A stretch of 64,000 bases of DNA from a virus (taxonomy: Duplodnaviria; Caudoviricetes): positions 32,001 through 96,000 of IMG/VR virus record IMGVR_UViG_3300031992_000040. One strand, given 5' to 3'. Shown piece after piece: positions 39,215 through 47,909 of this stretch. The position numbers and the translations under genes are program-made. Each line of letters starts with the position of its first letter. The stretch's first letter is position 1. The notes under the pieces are model-generated. The model did no database searches and was not told the DNA's origin. It saw nothing but the letters and a program-made list of their open reading frames with translations.

Positions 39215-39511
39215 ATGGAAAATAAGTTAAAACAATGTATAATAGATTATATTTTAGATTTAAAACAAAAAGGATTTTCTTATAATGAAATAATGAAATC
39301 GGTTAATAAAATATTTTCACAAGTAAAAACAACCGTTGAGAAAGCAAATAAAGAATTGTGTTGTATTTGCGGAAAAAGAATAGAGGGATTTGGGAATAAT
39401 GCTCAACCTATTGCAGACGGAAGATGTTGTGATGATTGTAATAGAGCTGTAATCAACGCAAAATTTGATAAAATTTTCTCAGATGGAGATGCCGTTAATG
39501 AGAACGTGTAA
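39215..39511 (+). CDS. Zn-finger hypothetical protein
   Basis: CCICG....GNNA.P...GRCCD.CN. Confidence 0.65.
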   Translation: MENKLKQCIIDYILDLKQKGFSYNEIMKSVNKIFSQVKTTVEKANKELCCICGKRIEGFGNNAQPIADGRCCDDCNRAVINAKFDKIFSDGDAVNENV

Positions 39512-39929
39512 ATTATGTAAAAATAAGTTTGGACAAAAAGGATATTATTGCCCTTCTTGTTATGCATATTTAAGAATACACCCAGAAGGAGTTTATGAAT
39601 TGCCTAATGCTGGAGAAATAAGAAGGGCATCAAATGGAGACCCTATCTGTCATATTTGTGGCATGGCTTATAGAAAGTTAGGTAATCATATCGCTTTTAA
39701 ACATCATATGACACAAAATGAATATAGAGATATGTTTAAATTATATCATAATACTAAGTTATCAAATTATGAATATATTAATAAAATGTCACAATATAAT
39801 AACATTTATAAAGACATTGTTGTTAAAGAAAATTTAATAAAAGGCGGAAAGAAAACAAGGATTACTCCTGAAATGCAGAATATGCCAAAAAGAAAATATG
39901 GCAGAGCAATTTCAGAAAAAACTGTTTAA
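39498..39929 (+). CDS. Zn-finger protein (C2H2/MucR-like segment)
   Basis: CxxC..CxxC and CHICG....L..HI...H.M...EY. Confidence 0.6.
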   Translation: MRTCKLCKNKFGQKGYYCPSCYAYLRIHPEGVYELPNAGEIRRASNGDPICHICGMAYRKLGNHIAFKHHMTQNEYRDMFKLYHNTKLSNYEYINKMSQYNNIYKDIVVKENLIKGGKKTRITPEMQNMPKRKYGRAISEKTV

Positions 39930-39981
39930 TTTTCACCACAAAATATTCTTTAACGATATTTACTGGAGAAAAAAAAGAGGT

Positions 39982-41613
39982 TTATGCCTCTTTTTTATTT
40001 TCTTTATTATCCCATTGTTTAATTAGTTCTGATGCAAATAATAATTCTTTTCCTGTCCATCCGTATAGAACGGCTCCTCTATAAATATATTCTGGTATTA
40101 AAGCATTATTATATCCTGCTGTTTGTATCATAAACACGTTTACTTTTGGATTCACTTCTGCCCTATATTTATTGATTAACTTCATTACATCGACATATTT
40201 ACCACTGTTATAGTTTGTTCCGTCTATAATATAATCATCCGTTTTACCATACAAACCACCGTGTCCAGCTTGTTGGTCTGAATAAATAAATATATTATCA
40301 TACCAGGTTTTTTCTCTTATTGCTGAAAGGAAGAACAACCAAATACCATTTTCTGTGCCCATACCGATTCCTTGACGAGATTCTTCTGATATTTTTTTTG
40401 CCTCAGACAGTATACCATTTTTCTTTAATATAGAGTATTCTTTTAATCTATCTCCGAATGCTCCAACATATCCTTCATCACTTCTATGAGCAACCATTAC
40501 AGAACTTAAATTACCTATTTCCGCTACTGTTACACTTCCGTATTCACTAGGTATTGCTCCCCAAGCACTTCCAGAATTGTCTGATAAACACATTGTTTTA
40601 CCTTTTAACATAGGAAGTTCCCTAGAACTAATATCTATACAATCTTCTAAAGCATCCATAATGCTAGCTTTAAAATTAATTTCACTATTTGAACATTTTT
40701 CAATTCTTTGTAATGCCGTATAGTATCTAAAAGGAAATTGTTTACCCTTCTTAACCCCGCTCTTTAATTTTGCTAATATATTATCTTTTTCTGATAAATC
40801 ATCAATCTCTTTAAATATATTCTTTAAATTTCTTAGCAAGGCCATATGGGGCATATCAATAGTTCTCAATATTTCTTTAAAAGATTTTCCTTCAGAACGT
40901 AAGTTTTCCCAGGTCTTATCTTCTTCTTCAATTTCTATTGTTCCCGTAGTCATCAATTCATTTATTGCTGAATTCTTTGCGTGACAAATTCTTATTACAT
41001 CTATAAGCCCAATATCTTTATTTTTATATTTTGCAATCTCATATTTTGTCATCTTTTCAATTCTATCAGCCCAAGAACGCTTTAATATTGATGGGATTTT
41101 ATTTTTAGATTTATTATAATATAAGTAAAAAGAAAGTTGAGACGCAGGTTCATCGGCTCTGGCCATAATTTCGCAATTTAATTGTCTAAATAATGATGGA
41201 TTTTCTTTTGAAAATTCTTCTCTTTTTGGATTTATTGCGGCTAAAACCATTATTACTTGTGGGTTTAATCTCATATAAAAGTTATTACGCAATTCTTTTG
41301 CCCACTCAATAGTTCCCATAAAATCATATTCTAATGAGTCTTCAATGGCCATAATCATTATTTCAGAAGTGGTCTTATTATCTGGAAATAAAAATAAACC
41401 ATAATCTTCTACCAATCTATGATATTTAAATTTACCATCTCTAATACCAGAATTTCTATAATAAGCAGGCTCTCCAAATATTGAAGATGCTGAAATCATT
41501 TTTAATGTTTCAAGCGGGTCAAGCTGATAAGATACGCCACCCATAAAGTTTTCTACGGGTTTTTCTTTTCTAACCTTATCTTCCCAATCTACAATTTTGC
41601 TTATTTTACTCAT
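39982..41613 (-). CDS. rsr: Ro60/Rsr TROVE-domain RNA-binding protein with vWA domain
   Basis: N..GG..Y, R...MR..P, RADE, YEIAKY, MALLRNL, QFPFRY, MIDAS-like SDNSGS, YSD.Q, YGW; 543 aa. Confidence 0.9.
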   Translation of the reverse strand: MSKISKIVDWEDKVRKEKPVENFMGGVSYQLDPLETLKMISASSIFGEPAYYRNSGIRDGKFKYHRLVEDYGLFLFPDNKTTSEIMIMAIEDSLEYDFMGTIEWAKELRNNFYMRLNPQVIMVLAAINPKREEFSKENPSLFRQLNCEIMARADEPASQLSFYLYYNKSKNKIPSILKRSWADRIEKMTKYEIAKYKNKDIGLIDVIRICHAKNSAINELMTTGTIEIEEEDKTWENLRSEGKSFKEILRTIDMPHMALLRNLKNIFKEIDDLSEKDNILAKLKSGVKKGKQFPFRYYTALQRIEKCSNSEINFKASIMDALEDCIDISSRELPMLKGKTMCLSDNSGSAWGAIPSEYGSVTVAEIGNLSSVMVAHRSDEGYVGAFGDRLKEYSILKKNGILSEAKKISEESRQGIGMGTENGIWLFFLSAIREKTWYDNIFIYSDQQAGHGGLYGKTDDYIIDGTNYNSGKYVDVMKLINKYRAEVNPKVNVFMIQTAGYNNALIPEYIYRGAVLYGWTGKELLFASELIKQWDNKENKKEA

Positions 41614-41639
41614 ATAAATCTACCTCTTTCTAAAATAAA

Positions 41640-41763
41640 GACTCTTGAGAATAACTTAAAGACGAAATATAAGCCCTTTATATCACGGAGATATGAGCTC
41701 TAATTAAAATCCTTTTTACTAATTTACCAAAATCGAAGTATGTCTTTAACCGCTTCAAGAGTC
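41640..41763 (-). ncRNA. Candidate Ro-associated (Y-like) RNA, copy 1
   Basis: Terminal stem GACUCUUGA/UCAAGAGUC, loop AGCGG/GUUAUUC, stem UUAAAGAC/GUCUUUAA, UACUUCG motif; directly 5' of Ro60 gene. Confidence 0.65.
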
Positions 41764-41781
41764 ATTTAATTTTTCATTTTT

Positions 41782-41864
41782 GACATCCGAGAATAACCAA
41801 AAGAGTAATAAGTTTTAACCAAAAACTATCATAACGAAGTAACTCTTTTACCGCTTCGGATGTC
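41782..41864 (-). ncRNA. Candidate Ro-associated (Y-like) RNA, copy 2
   Basis: Terminal stem GACAUCCGA/UCGGAUGUC, same AGCGG/GUUAUUC loop, stem AAAAGAGU/ACUCUUUU, UACUUCG motif. Confidence 0.65.
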
Positions 41865-41883
41865 TGTTCTTTTTTTTTATGTG

Positions 41884-41959
41884 TGGTGGAGCATACAGGG
41901 GTCGAACCTGCGACCTCCACGGTGCAAACGTGGCGCTCTCCCAGCTGAGCTAATGCCCC
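41884..41959 (-). tRNA. tRNA-Ala(UGC)
   Basis: 76-nt cloverleaf, UAGCUCAG.UGG.AGAGC D arm, GGUUCGA T loop, G3.U70, encoded CCA. Confidence 0.95.
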
Positions 41960-41971
41960 AAAATATTAATT

Positions 41972-42188
41972 TGGAAAGGGAGCTACCGCTATTACTGTAT
42001 CCTTTTACCTTAGTTCACTATACGTTTATAAGCGCCATTACATACTAAGAACCAAAAAAAATCAATAGGTTAATGCTTATATAGTAAAGGGTTAACCAAA
42101 ACATTCTATATACACACTACATTTTACATAACTTATTCTATTAGTCTCGTTAGTGTCATTGAGCTATCAGCAGTTGCTCCTTCGTTTC
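41972..42188 (-). ncRNA. Candidate ~215-nt structured RNA between the tRNAs
   Basis: Ends pair (GAAGGAGCAACUGCU / AGCGGUAGCUCCCUUUC); internal hairpins; no credible ORF. Confidence 0.45.
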
Positions 42189-42210
42189 TGCATCAAAGTT
42201 AAAACCTAAT

Positions 42211-42284
42211 TGGCAGAGAGCGTAGGAATTGAACCCACTCGACTTGAGATTTGGAGTCTCAACGGCAACCATCGCCTGCTCCCC
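42211..42284 (-). tRNA. tRNA-Trp(CCA), atypical (minimal D arm)
   Basis: Anticodon arm UGAGA-CUCCAAA-UCUCA, T arm GUGGG-UUCAAUU-CCUAC, G73, encoded CCA. Confidence 0.8.
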
Positions 42285-42296
42285 ATATAGCTTTGC

Positions 42297-42538
42297 ATAA
42301 GACTGAAATTATATTTTGCTCTCTCTAATTATTATATTATAATTCTAAGTCTTATACACAAACGCAAAGTATACCGCAAGAGAGATGCGTTTGACAAATG
42401 CAATAAGCATAGTTTTCGATTTATGCACGGTCGTTAGAACAAAAAATTATTCAAAACATATATTCAGGGGGCGAAAAAACCGTGCTACGCCAAAATGAAA
42501 AACAAATCAAATGCGTAAGAGCTATTCTTGTCTCTTAC
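42297..42538 (-). ncRNA. Candidate structured leader/ncRNA (four tandem hairpins)
   Basis: Inverted repeats at 42297-42355, 42359-42393, 42425-42485, 42515-42538, starting at the predicted TSS. Confidence 0.4.
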
Positions 42539-42544
42539 AAATTA

Positions 42545-42574
42545 AGTATAGCATTTATGAATATAAGTTGTCAA
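42545..42574 (-). promoter_or_regulatory. sigmaA promoter driving RNA array and Ro60 gene
   Basis: TTGACA-18-TATACT with TGn extension on - strand. Confidence 0.7.
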
Positions 42575-46678: not shown

Positions 46679-47909
46679 TTCACTTCACTTTCTACTTTAT
46701 TCGCTAGCTTTAAAATTATATATTGGCTTTATTATTTTTTCTACTTCAACTGTATCTTTTATACGTTCTAATATTTCTTGCATTGGTTTATATACCATAG
46801 GTGCTTCATCTATTGTTTCCTCATTTACTGATGTTGTATATATACCGTCCATTGATTTTTTGTAATCATCAATATTTAATGTTTGCCTTGCTATGTTTCT
46901 TGACATTGTTCTACCAGCTCCGTGTGGTGCAGAATAATTCCAATCTTCATTGCCTTTACCAATGCCTATAATACATCCATCTCTCATATTCATAGGTATA
47001 ATAACTTTTTCACCTTTTCTTGCTGATATTGAACCTTTTCTAACAATGTTATCTTCAAAATTTATATAATTATGAATACATTGGAAATAATCTTCACTTA
47101 ATATACTCATCTCTTTACAAATTTTATAAGCAATATAACTTCTATTTAATAATGCAAACTCTTGACATAGTTTCATATCGTGCAAATAATCTTCTCTATC
47201 TTTTCCTTCTAAATAACATAAATCTTTTGGCAATTTAGTTTTTCCATTATATTTAGCATTAATTTCTGTTAATACTTTTTGTATTTCCTTTTCTCTGCCT
47301 TGTTCTTTATATTCTTTAATTACTTTTTGCTTTTCATCGTTCATTTCTTTTTTGTATGAACAATATTCTATCGCTTTATTTTGATATATTTCGGCAACTT
47401 GTTTTCCTAAATTTCTCGAACCCGTATGAATAACTAAATATTTGTTATTTTCATCATCAACATCAATTTCAATAAAATGATTACCACCACCTAGTGAGCC
47501 TAATGACTTTTCTAACCAACCATCTTTATTTTTTAATTCTTTATAACAATATAATTGAGTAAAGTCATAATCTTTAACTTTTTTTTCATGAACATTCATT
47601 CCACTTGGTATATATTTTCTAATAATCTTATCTAATTTCTCTAAATCTAATTCTATATTTCCTAAATTGACACATAACATACCACAACCAATATCAACAC
47701 CCACTATGTTTGGTATTACTTTATCACCTAAATTGCCAGTAAAACCTATTACGCAACCTGCTCCTGCATGAACATCTGGCATTATTCTAATTTTACAATC
47801 TTTAAATGCTTCTTGTTCTAATAATAAATCAATTTGTTCTTTTGCGCTTTGTTCTATATTGTTTGTAAATATTTTTAAGTCTTTCATAATCAATTCACTT
47901 TACTTTCTA
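46676..47909. repeat. 19-bp direct repeats flanking rtcB (46676-46694 and 47891-47909)
   Basis: CAATTCACTT(C/T)ACTTTCTA, one mismatch. Confidence 0.7.
46697..47893 (-). CDS. rtcB: RtcB RNA ligase (3'-P or 2',3'-cP to 5'-OH)
   Basis: MPDVHAG.G..IG, VGVDIGCG, LGGGNHFIE, HTGSR, HNY, HGAGR, DEAP..YK. Confidence 0.95.
   Translation of the reverse strand: MIMKDLKIFTNNIEQSAKEQIDLLLEQEAFKDCKIRIMPDVHAGAGCVIGFTGNLGDKVIPNIVGVDIGCGMLCVNLGNIELDLEKLDKIIRKYIPSGMNVHEKKVKDYDFTQLYCYKELKNKDGWLEKSLGSLGGGNHFIEIDVDDENNKYLVIHTGSRNLGKQVAEIYQNKAIEYCSYKKEMNDEKQKVIKEYKEQGREKEIQKVLTEINAKYNGKTKLPKDLCYLEGKDREDYLHDMKLCQEFALLNRSYIAYKICKEMSILSEDYFQCIHNYINFEDNIVRKGSISARKGEKVIIPMNMRDGCIIGIGKGNEDWNYSAPHGAGRTMSRNIARQTLNIDDYKKSMDGIYTTSVNEETIDEAPMVYKPMQEILERIKDTVEVEKIIKPIYNFKASE

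What the first reader, a model, noticed from the sequence alone, without database searches (positions are those of the whole stretch)
41640..41864. Two tandem RNA repeats with compensatory base changes: candidate Y-like RNAs without a tRNA-mimic domain
Seen on the - strand: copy 1 is GACUCUUGA-AGCGG-UUAAAGAC-A-UACUUCG...GUCUUUAA-GUUAUUC-UCAAGAGUC. Copy 2 is GACAUCCGA-AGCGGU-AAAAGAGU-UACUUCG...ACUCUUUU-GGUUAUUC-UCGGAUGUC. Both stems differ in sequence but stay paired, while the internal loop (AGCGG/GUUAUUC) and UACUUCG are identical. This is the pattern expected of a selected RNA structure with a protein-binding loop. The apical domain differs (124 vs 83 nt; copy 1 has an extra hairpin). Neither copy has recognisable D/T arms, unlike tRNA-mimic YrlA. 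Inference: a shared Ro-binding module carrying interchangeable effector domains.
Basis: partly seen in the sequence, partly recalled or inferred. Interest (0 to 1): 0.88.

Follow-up and report, generated by a model that had tools for sequence, protein, structure and literature searches.

The report
Two phage Y RNAs beside Ro60
Two small structured RNAs just upstream of a phage Ro60 gene are real members of the known Y RNA class: they keep the conserved Ro60-binding handle of bacterial YrlA RNAs but lack the tRNA-like part, so this is a well-supported but ordinary example of a known RNA-protein pair.

Summary
On the - strand, 41864-41782 (83 nt) and 41763-41640 (124 nt) share one layout: stem1, AGCGG, stem2, UACUUCG, variable top, stem2', GUUAUUC, stem1'. 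Six base pairs are swapped compensatorily between the copies. They lie 26 nt upstream of a 543-aa TROVE/Ro60 gene and downstream of tRNA-Trp and tRNA-Ala.

A covariance model built only from four Bacillus phage G copies finds both window copies (47.7 and 46.2 bits) and nothing else in the 108.7-kb genome. Across 80 related phage Ro60 loci it gives 169 hits, all on the Ro60 strand and all flanking the gene. All 17 pairs covary.

The same handle carries a true YrlA tRNA-like domain in phage G and in a syntenic relative, and it has the layout of the Rfam YrlA consensus. The window copies have no T or D arm and match no Rfam family.

They are therefore Y RNAs of the YrlA lineage without the tRNA mimic, like YrlB, Yrn2 or phiLo Yrl1/2. 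Y RNA modularity, Y RNAs without a tRNA mimic and phage Ro60 with upstream Y RNAs are all published, so this is a new member of a known kind. Binding and expression were not tested. This scan has already noted the same handle-plus-cargo arrays beside Ro60 in other phage genomes.

The parts
41782..41864 (-). Y RNA copy 2 (distal, 83 nt). Stem1 41864-41856 with 41790-41782; 5' loop AGCGG 41855-41851; stem2 41850-41842 with 41806-41798; UACUUC 41841-41836; U-rich apical hairpin 41835-41807; 3' loop GUUAUUC 41797-41791.
   Evidence: Sequence; fold, z = -3.85; R1 47.7 bits, E 6e-8, full model; no tRNA or YrlA match.
41640..41763 (-). Y RNA copy 1 (proximal, 124 nt). Stem1 41763-41755 with 41648-41640; AGCGG 41754-41750; stem2 41749-41742 with 41663-41656; UACUUC 41740-41735; apical domain 41734-41664 with an extra hairpin; GUUAUUC 41655-41649. 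It ends 26 nt before the Ro60 start codon.
   Evidence: R1 46.2 bits, E 1.3e-7. The apical hairpin keeps pairing through U-G to U-A and A-U to G-U changes in 94-98% relatives L085 and L086.
39982..41613 (-). Ro60/TROVE + vWA gene (543 aa), the presumed protein partner.
   Evidence: Pfam TROVE 31.3 bits, cut-off 23. 53.7% identical to Bacillus phage G gp540. phmmer E 2e-12 to Thermus phage phiLo Ro60, PDB 9L5Y/9KOP. DNSGSAW (MIDAS-type) is invariant in the family alignment.
41884..41959 (-). tRNA-Ala(UGC), 19 nt upstream of copy 2 on the same strand.
   Evidence: ARAGORN; Rfam tRNA 63.6 bits.
42211..42284 (-). tRNA-Trp(CCA), first gene of the putative RNA operon.
   Evidence: ARAGORN. In Rfam the best match is sub-threshold, tRNA-Sec 33 bits. 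With tRNA-Ala it is one of only two tRNAs in the whole genome.
42545..42574 (-). Promoter-like site TTGACA-18-TATACT with TG, 11 of 12. A second site lies at 42368-42397 (10 of 12). Either could drive tRNA-Trp, tRNA-Ala, the Y RNAs and Ro60.
   Evidence: Consensus scan only. Sites are not enriched over shuffles and no - strand terminator was found before the end of Ro60.
39971..39996 (.). Terminator-like hairpin overlapping the Ro60 stop codon (listed on the + strand by the scan; its U/A-rich flanks might let it act on both strands); likely end of the transcription unit.
46697..47893 (-). RtcB RNA ligase gene, same strand, 5 kb upstream. It is context: the Ro60, Y RNA and RtcB association known from bacteria.
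   Evidence: ORF; PF01139 156.5 bits at genome 78709-79794, which is window 46709-47794.

Best explanation
The two repeats are genes for two Y RNAs, the small non-coding RNAs that bind the ring protein Ro60 encoded right after them. Shown: each has a constant handle made of a 9-bp terminal stem ending YGA/UCR, an asymmetric internal loop (5' AGCGG, 3' GUUAUUC), a second stem of fixed length and the unpaired UACUUC. This handle is the lower, Ro60-binding module of YrlA-type Y RNAs. Above it the window copies carry only hairpins, not the tRNA-like effector domain, so they resemble YrlB/Yrn2-type Y RNAs. Inferred: they are transcribed with tRNA-Trp, tRNA-Ala and the Ro60 mRNA from an upstream promoter and are cut out of the precursor. 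Inferred: Ro60 reads the two invariant single-stranded motifs, held 9-11 nt (about one helical turn) apart by stem2. Inferred: the bound RNA gates the Ro60 cavity and/or tethers Ro60 through its variable top to a nuclease such as PNPase. With the phage tRNAs and RtcB this would serve RNA quality control or repair during infection, possibly as counter-defence.
For: Anatomy and compensatory changes. Independent model: R1 was built from four phage G copies only and finds both window copies full-length (47.7 and 46.2 bits), plus two further phage G copies it was not built from. It finds nothing else in the 108,674-bp genome or in the window with filters off. Linkage to Ro60: 169 hits in 74 of 80 related IMG/VR Ro60 loci, all on the Ro60 strand, none inside the ORF, in arrays of up to 7. 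In five whole phage genomes of 170-497 kb every hit lies within about 10 kb of Ro60 on its strand. In Bacillota genome and MAG loci 80 of 84 hits are on the Ro60 strand. A database-wide scan for the 5' half-motif alone gave 15 matches with a proper 3' partner, all on Ro60-bearing contigs, against 0 of 67 chance matches. Covariation over 125 distinct copies: 93% of cells paired, all 17 pairs changed on both sides, score 0.857 against 0.216 for shuffles and about 0.1 for slid partners. Candidates chosen by 5' motif alone have a perfect 9/9 stem1 partner in 39%, against 5% for shuffles, and the partner is usually preceded by UAUUC. Identity as Y RNA: in phage G the same handle carries a T arm, an acceptor-like hairpin and a D arm, which hits Rfam YrlA at 36 bits. 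Relatives with tRNA-like tops hit YrlA full-length at E 1e-6 to 1e-8 at the same coordinates as my model. The YrlA consensus has the same layout: stem cggCga, AUGCu, stem, CUAc. G15 to U31 spacing is 10 nt in 111 of 125 copies and 9-11 in all. Literature: Y RNAs are modular, lie within 2 kb of rsr, carry GNCGAAN0-1G and YUAY, and include non-tRNA-like members (PMC4201824, 10.1101/312249). Phage phiLo Ro60 binds two upstream Y-like RNAs and host PNPase (PMC12135203).
Against: No terminator separates copy 1 from the Ro60 ORF, so they could act within the mRNA leader. The handle fits the published GNCGAAN0-1G motif only partly: copy 2 has CCGAAG and copy 1 has UUGAAG. Rfam YrlA does not match them. 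The experimentally studied phiLo Yrl locus is not detected by my model, so transfer of its biochemistry is by analogy. The effector partner and the biological role are unknown. The covariation alignment was fitted to the model.
Confidence: 0.85

Rival explanations
1. They are cis-acting elements of the Ro60 mRNA leader, either Ro60 autoregulatory binding sites or processing and stability signals, rather than stand-alone RNAs.
For: Copy 1 ends 26 nt before the ATG with only the ribosome-binding site between them. No - strand terminator was found. In many relatives the last copy also ends 15-45 nt before the Ro60 start.
Against: In many relatives the arrays lie downstream of Ro60 (L007-L013, L016-L025) or several kb away, so a 5'-leader position is not required. 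The same handle belongs to YrlA RNAs, which accumulate as stable Ro-bound RNAs processed from a precursor in M. smegmatis and Salmonella (PMC4201824). The two roles are not exclusive.
Confidence: 0.1
2. They are decaying remnants of once tRNA-like Y RNAs, with the tRNA domain deleted, and no longer function.
For: The syntenic relative L092 (66% Ro60 identity, same tRNA-Trp, tRNA-Ala, Y, Y, Ro60 order) has a YrlA-type tRNA-like RNA where the window has the 83-nt copy 2.
Against: Every invariant handle nucleotide is kept, and both stems are perfect with compensatory differences. At least 116 of 150 family copies likewise lack a T-loop motif, and many phages carry only short copies. Near-identical phages (94-98% Ro60) keep both RNAs, with changes confined to loops and apical pairs that stay paired.
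Confidence: 0.04
3. They are chance inverted repeats, REP-like repeats or terminators unrelated to Ro60.
For: The genome is AT-rich (29% GC), so hairpins are easy to find. The z-score of copy 1 alone is modest at -1.99.
Against: Strand-specific invariant unpaired motifs, covariation and exclusive linkage to Ro60 genes across hundreds of copies. No U-tract terminator follows copy 2.
Confidence: 0.01

Closest known systems
Bacillus phage G Y RNA (YrlA type) upstream of gp540, and its paralogues
   Same: Ro60 is 53.7% identical. The handle is identical: UGAAGCGG, stem2, UACUUC, then AAUAAUC-UCA. The copies are tandem, upstream of Ro60 and on its strand. Literature lists phage G among phages with Y RNA-like RNAs (PMC12135203, citing Chen 2014).
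   Different: Phage G has seven copies. One carries a full permuted tRNA-like domain (Rfam YrlA 36 bits). The window phage has two copies and no tRNA-like one.
Salmonella and M. smegmatis YrlA (Rfam RF02553)
   Same: Same lower-module layout: terminal stem ending CGA, a 5' loop containing UGC/AGC, a second stem, then YUAY (CUAC or UUAC) (PMC4201824). Adjacent to rsr and associated with RtcB.
   Different: The window RNAs lack the T, acceptor-like and D elements that make up most of the family model and define YrlA. They give no RF02553 match at E <= 10.
YrlB (Salmonella, M. smegmatis) and D. radiodurans Yrn2
   Same: [quoted passage not shown] Copy 2 fits this description.
   Different: No sequence homology could be tested, because YrlB has no Rfam model and published searches found it only in S. 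enterica. In the window no tRNA-like partner RNA accompanies them.
Thermus phage phiLo Yrl1/Yrl2 with phiRo60 (PMC12135203)
   Same: A phage Ro60 gene with two Y-like RNAs directly upstream and a stem-bulge-stem plan. Ro60 is homologous (E 2e-12). Binding to Ro60 and to host PNPase was shown by EMSA and cryo-EM.
   Different: My handle model finds nothing in the phiLo locus; that paper defines its RNAs by a CGAA motif. The host and base composition are very different.
Metazoan Y RNAs (hY1-hY5, Xenopus Y3)
   Same: 80-130 nt, ends paired into a long stem that holds the Ro60 site, with a variable effector part. The motif on the 5' strand is similar: GGUCCGA against (U/C)CCGAAG.
   Different: No bulged-C helix, different conserved loops, no Pol III terminator or La site. 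Sequence homology is not detectable (no Rfam Y_RNA hit).

Membership tests
Y RNA (Ro60-associated ncRNA class) | Encoded within about 2 kb of a Ro60/TROVE gene on the same strand | tested here: met
   The copies lie 26 and 168 nt upstream of the TROVE ORF on the - strand.
Y RNA (Ro60-associated ncRNA class) | 80-130 nt; 5' and 3' ends pair into a long stem interrupted by an internal loop, with a variable distal module | tested here: met
   83 and 124 nt, with stem1, loop and stem2. Pairing is supported by covariation in 125 copies.
Y RNA (Ro60-associated ncRNA class) | Conserved 5'-strand Ro-binding motif (bacterial GNCGAAN0-1G; vertebrate GGUCCGA) | tested here: inconclusive
   Copy 2 has UCCGAAG and copy 1 has CUUGAAG. 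The family consensus is YGA-WGCRG. The CGAAG core matches, but the leading G-N is not conserved.
Y RNA (Ro60-associated ncRNA class) | Physically bound by Ro60 and dependent on it for stability | not testable with these tools
   Needs EMSA, co-immunoprecipitation or Northern blots.
YrlA (Rfam RF02553) | Score at or above the gathering threshold (69 bits) | tested here: not met
   No RF02553 match at E <= 10 in 41500-42400. tRNA-bearing relatives reach 36-49 bits.
YrlA (Rfam RF02553) | tRNA-like effector domain (T arm, acceptor-like stem-loop, D arm) | tested here: not met
   No tRNA called inside either copy, no tRNA or YrlA match in Rfam, and no GTTCRANYC-type T-loop motif near them in the genome-wide regex.
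YrlA (Rfam RF02553) | Lower module: terminal stem ending CGA, 5' loop, second stem, YUAY | tested here: met
   The layout of the Rfam consensus equals that of the window copies.
Handle family defined here (models R1 and R2: YGA-WGCRG / 9-11 nt / UACUUC ... UAUUC-UCR) | Full-length match to a model not trained on the window | tested here: met
   R1 gives 47.7 and 46.2 bits over model positions 1-108.
YrlB/Yrn2-type Y RNA | [quoted passage not shown] | tested here: inconclusive
   Copy 2 folds as a long hairpin with a U-rich apical loop. There is no sequence model for YrlB to test homology against.
tRNA | Cloverleaf recognised by ARAGORN or Rfam RF00005 | tested here: not met

The most novel reading that the evidence does not exclude
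The handle is a portable Ro60-docking cassette with a bipartite recognition site: WGCRG and UACUUC held 9-11 nt (about one helical turn) apart, plus UAUUC opposite. Phages shuffle it onto different cargoes (plain hairpins, permuted YrlA-type tRNA mimics, whole non-permuted tRNA cloverleaves), forming adaptor libraries of 1-8 RNAs inside their tRNA islands. The window phage would be a minimal case that works with two cargo-less handles and no tRNA mimic at all. That would contradict the generalisation that every Ro60-bearing genome keeps at least one tRNA-like Y RNA, and it would imply that gating of Ro60, not tethering through a tRNA mimic, is the core function.
Probability: 0.3. Interest if true: 0.65.

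Novelty: new member of a known kind. Interest (0 to 1): 0.42.

Why it matters
For this window the result is an annotation. The 225 nt upstream of the phage Ro60 gene are two Y RNA genes, and together with two tRNAs and RtcB they mark an RNA quality-control or repair module that is probably used during infection. More broadly, the handle model (R1, R2) recognises several hundred unannotated Y RNAs beside Ro60 genes in phages and gut Bacillota that Rfam's YrlA model misses, because that model depends on the tRNA-like domain. The fixed spacing of the invariant motifs gives a concrete, mutable hypothesis for how bacterial-type Ro60 recognises its RNAs, for which no complex structure with a native handle was found in the literature searched. 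A phage genome estimated 94% complete with only cargo-less Y RNAs is a convenient minimal system for testing what the handle alone does.

Tried and rejected
1. Rfam 15 at the gathering threshold and at E <= 10 gives no family for either RNA.
2. A single-protein search of IMG/VR found no relatives. An alignment query was needed.
3. MAFFT alignments of full-length copies misaligned the 3' halves. I seeded the model from four phage G copies whose alignment I checked column by column.
I used the 39-copy alignment instead.
5. I considered an alternative pairing of GAAG (in YGAAGCGG) with CUUC (in UACUUC), which would make a switch. It is rejected because the W and the U/A columns do not covary (1 U-A against 38 U-U and 12 A-A).
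6. I asked whether the 250-nt spacer between the two tRNAs, which contains AGCGGU, is a third family member. It is not: nothing reaches 10 bits there on the - strand with filters off.
7. No handle hits were found in the Thermus phiLo, CcrColossus or Nitratidesulfovibrio phage loci. Hits in Streptomyces phage BRock and crAss-like csAssE-Sib were only weak.
9. No protein-RNA complex prediction is available, and I spent no protein fold job because Ro60 identity was already clear from sequence.

Full report
**1. What is there.** On the - strand the order is: promoter-like sites (42574-42545 and 42397-42368), tRNA-Trp (42284-42211), a 250-nt spacer, tRNA-Ala (41959-41884), copy 2 (41864-41782, 83 nt), an 18-nt spacer, copy 1 (41763-41640, 124 nt), a ribosome-binding site, and a 543-aa ORF (41613-39982). 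The unit ends at a hairpin over the stop codon. The ORF is a TROVE/Ro60 protein. It scores 31.3 bits on Pfam PF05731 against a cut-off of 23. It is 53.7% identical to Bacillus phage G gp540. It is related to the structurally solved Ro60 of Thermus phage phiLo at E 2e-12.

The window lies in a 108,674-bp IMG/VR phage record of 29% GC, estimated 94% complete. That genome has only these two tRNAs. An RtcB ligase gene lies 5 kb upstream on the same strand.

**2. The observation.** Both copies read exactly as reported. RNAfold gives each the same nested design: a 9-bp stem1, an asymmetric internal loop (5' AGCGG, 3' GUUAUUC), an 8-9 bp stem2, the unpaired UACUUCG, and then a variable top. Four stem1 pairs and at least two stem2 pairs differ on both sides between the copies, while the unpaired motifs are identical. 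Neither copy contains a tRNA by ARAGORN. Neither matches any Rfam family, including tRNA, YrlA and Y_RNA, even at E <= 10.

**3. Relatives.** Upstream of phage G gp540 I read the same motif five times and a sixth time one gene further up. In that sixth copy the handle carries a textbook T arm, an acceptor-like hairpin ending ACCA and a D arm. That is the permuted tRNA-like domain of YrlA, and it hits Rfam YrlA at 36 bits over model positions 23-86.

I built covariance model R1 from four phage G copies only, after checking the alignment column by column. R1 recovers the two remaining phage G copies and both window copies over the full model, at 47.7 and 46.2 bits with E about 1e-7. It finds nothing else in the window's genome.

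An alignment of Ro60 homologues retrieved 80 IMG/VR loci with 48-63% identical Ro60. R1 gives 169 hits at E < 0.1 in 74 of those loci. All are on the Ro60 strand, none is inside the ORF, and they form arrays of up to seven directly before or after the gene. In five complete phage genomes of 170-497 kb every hit lies within about 10 kb of Ro60 on its strand. Closer relatives (61-98% Ro60 identity) have two to five copies directly upstream. In 80 loci from Bacillota genomes and MAGs, including Bacillus sp. Brlt_9 and Acetatifactor muris DSM 23669, 80 of 84 hits are on the Ro60 strand.

As an unbiased test I scanned all IMG/VR for 15 specified bases of the 5' half only. Fifteen of them have a proper 3' partner, and all 15 sit on Ro60-bearing contigs. 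None of the other 67 has a TROVE ORF in its locus.

**4. Structure support.** On 125 distinct copies, 93% of cells pair and all 17 pairs show changes on both sides. The covariation score is 0.857, against 0.216 for shuffles and about 0.1 for slid partners. That alignment is fitted to the model, so I also picked candidates by the 5' motif alone. That gave 205 distinct candidates, 203 of them on the Ro60 strand. Of these, 39% have a perfect 9/9 complement downstream against 5% for shuffled probes, and the partner is usually preceded by UAUUC.

The invariant or near-invariant unpaired positions are G12, C13, G15 (WGCRG), U31, A32, C33, U35, C36 (UACUUC) and the C before UCR. The distance from G15 to U31 is 10 nt in 111 of 125 copies and 9-11 nt in all of them; the window copies have 9. 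A tempting alternative pairing of GAAG with CUUC does not covary.

**5. What it is.** The Rfam YrlA consensus reads stem cggCga, AUGCu, stem, CUAc, the tRNA-like core, stem, loop, stem. This is the same plan as the handle. Family members with tRNA-like tops hit RF02553 full-length at E 1e-6 to 1e-8, at the coordinates of my hits. So the handle is the Ro60-binding module of the YrlA lineage. Its YGAAG corresponds to the published GNCGAAN0-1G motif and its UUAC to the published YUAY (PMC4201824).

The window RNAs are this module with plain hairpin tops. The syntenic relative L092 has the same tRNA-Trp, tRNA-Ala, Y, Y, Ro60 order, and it has a YrlA-type RNA where the window has the 83-nt copy. 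This suggests loss or exchange of the cargo. In near-identical phages (L085, L086) both RNAs are kept; the few changes fall in loops or keep apical pairs.

**6. How it probably works.** Published work shows that Y RNAs are modular, with a Ro60-binding stem plus an effector-binding module. They gate Ro60 or tether it to PNPase (10.1101/312249). Phage phiLo Ro60 binds two upstream Y-like RNAs and host PNPase (PMC12135203). A Ro60-like phage protein next to tRNA genes counters a defence system (10.1101/2024.10.10.617714). By analogy the two RNAs dock on the phage Ro60 through the handle, and their different tops would give two particles. The fixed stem2 length suggests that one protein surface reads both single-stranded motifs. 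Co-transcription with the tRNAs and Ro60 is inferred from the lack of a terminator. Binding, processing and function remain untested.

**7. Novelty.** Phage Y RNAs next to Ro60 were reported in 2014 for 22 phages, and later literature names phage G among them. Y RNAs without a tRNA mimic (YrlB, Yrn2) and the modular concept are also published. The window element is therefore a new member of a known kind. It belongs to a handle family that Rfam does not capture. Notes from this scan already describe the same handle-plus-cargo arrays beside Ro60-like genes in other phage genomes. Those notes are leads, not evidence.

The mildly new points are these. This phage has no tRNA-like Y RNA at all. The spacing between the two invariant motifs is constant. 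In relatives, the cargo can be a complete, non-permuted tRNA cloverleaf.

Noticed in passing
L010:4171-4305, L010:4320-4435, L012:4164-4273, L020:4217-4348, L021:1800-1926, L087:2116-2231, L090:1849-1985, L093:2153-2289: In relatives some handle RNAs enclose a complete, non-permuted tRNA-like cloverleaf (D arm, anticodon arm, T arm), with stem2/UACUU serving as the acceptor stem. ARAGORN calls them tRNAs (Lys, Thr, Ser, Leu, Ile and a UUA 'stop' anticodon), and one reaches 50 bits on Rfam tRNA. This topology differs from the permuted YrlA domain.
   Followed up: partly
window 41960-42210 (-): The 250-nt spacer between tRNA-Trp and tRNA-Ala has no ORF on that strand and contains AGCGGU. It is not a member of the handle family: nothing reaches 10 bits there on the - strand with filters off. 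Its nature is unknown.
   Followed up: partly
window 42211-42284 (-): ARAGORN calls tRNA-Trp(CCA), but it does not reach the Rfam tRNA gathering score in the whole-window scan. Its best Rfam match is a sub-threshold tRNA-Sec alignment (33 bits) with a short D arm. It is an atypical tRNA.
   Followed up: no
window 46697-47893 (-): A full-length RtcB RNA ligase gene (PF01139, 156 bits) lies 5 kb upstream of Ro60 on the same strand. Relative L087 also has RtcB about 2.3 kb upstream of its Ro60.
   Followed up: partly
window 39465-39929 (+): A Ros/MucR-type zinc-finger ORF (PF05443, 30.8 bits) converges on the Ro60 gene. The same neighbour is seen in relatives L085, L086 and L090.
   Followed up: no
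L005-L094 in general; for example L016, L087, L091: Ro60 and its Y RNA arrays are embedded in the phage tRNA gene islands, with up to 16 tRNAs in 6.6 kb, all on the same strand. Several of these phages carry suppressor-type tRNAs (anticodons UUA and CUA).
   Followed up: no
L023:5631-6031: A 346-kb phage encodes a tmRNA (tag DTNRYAAPIAA) 1.5 kb downstream of its Ro60 and Y RNAs.
   Followed up: no
NC_023719.1 412773-412841 (+): A seventh handle copy (54 bits) in Bacillus phage G lies 3.7 kb downstream of gp540, just past the tRNA-Ser..tRNA-Glu gene block.
   Followed up: no
L298:1490-1682; L297:1174-1309: Weak handle hits with the conserved GUUACUUC lie upstream of Ro60 in Streptomyces phage BRock. 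A YrlA-type RNA lies upstream of Ro60 in crAss-like phage csAssE-Sib. The UACUUC element therefore reaches beyond Bacillota phages.
   Followed up: partly
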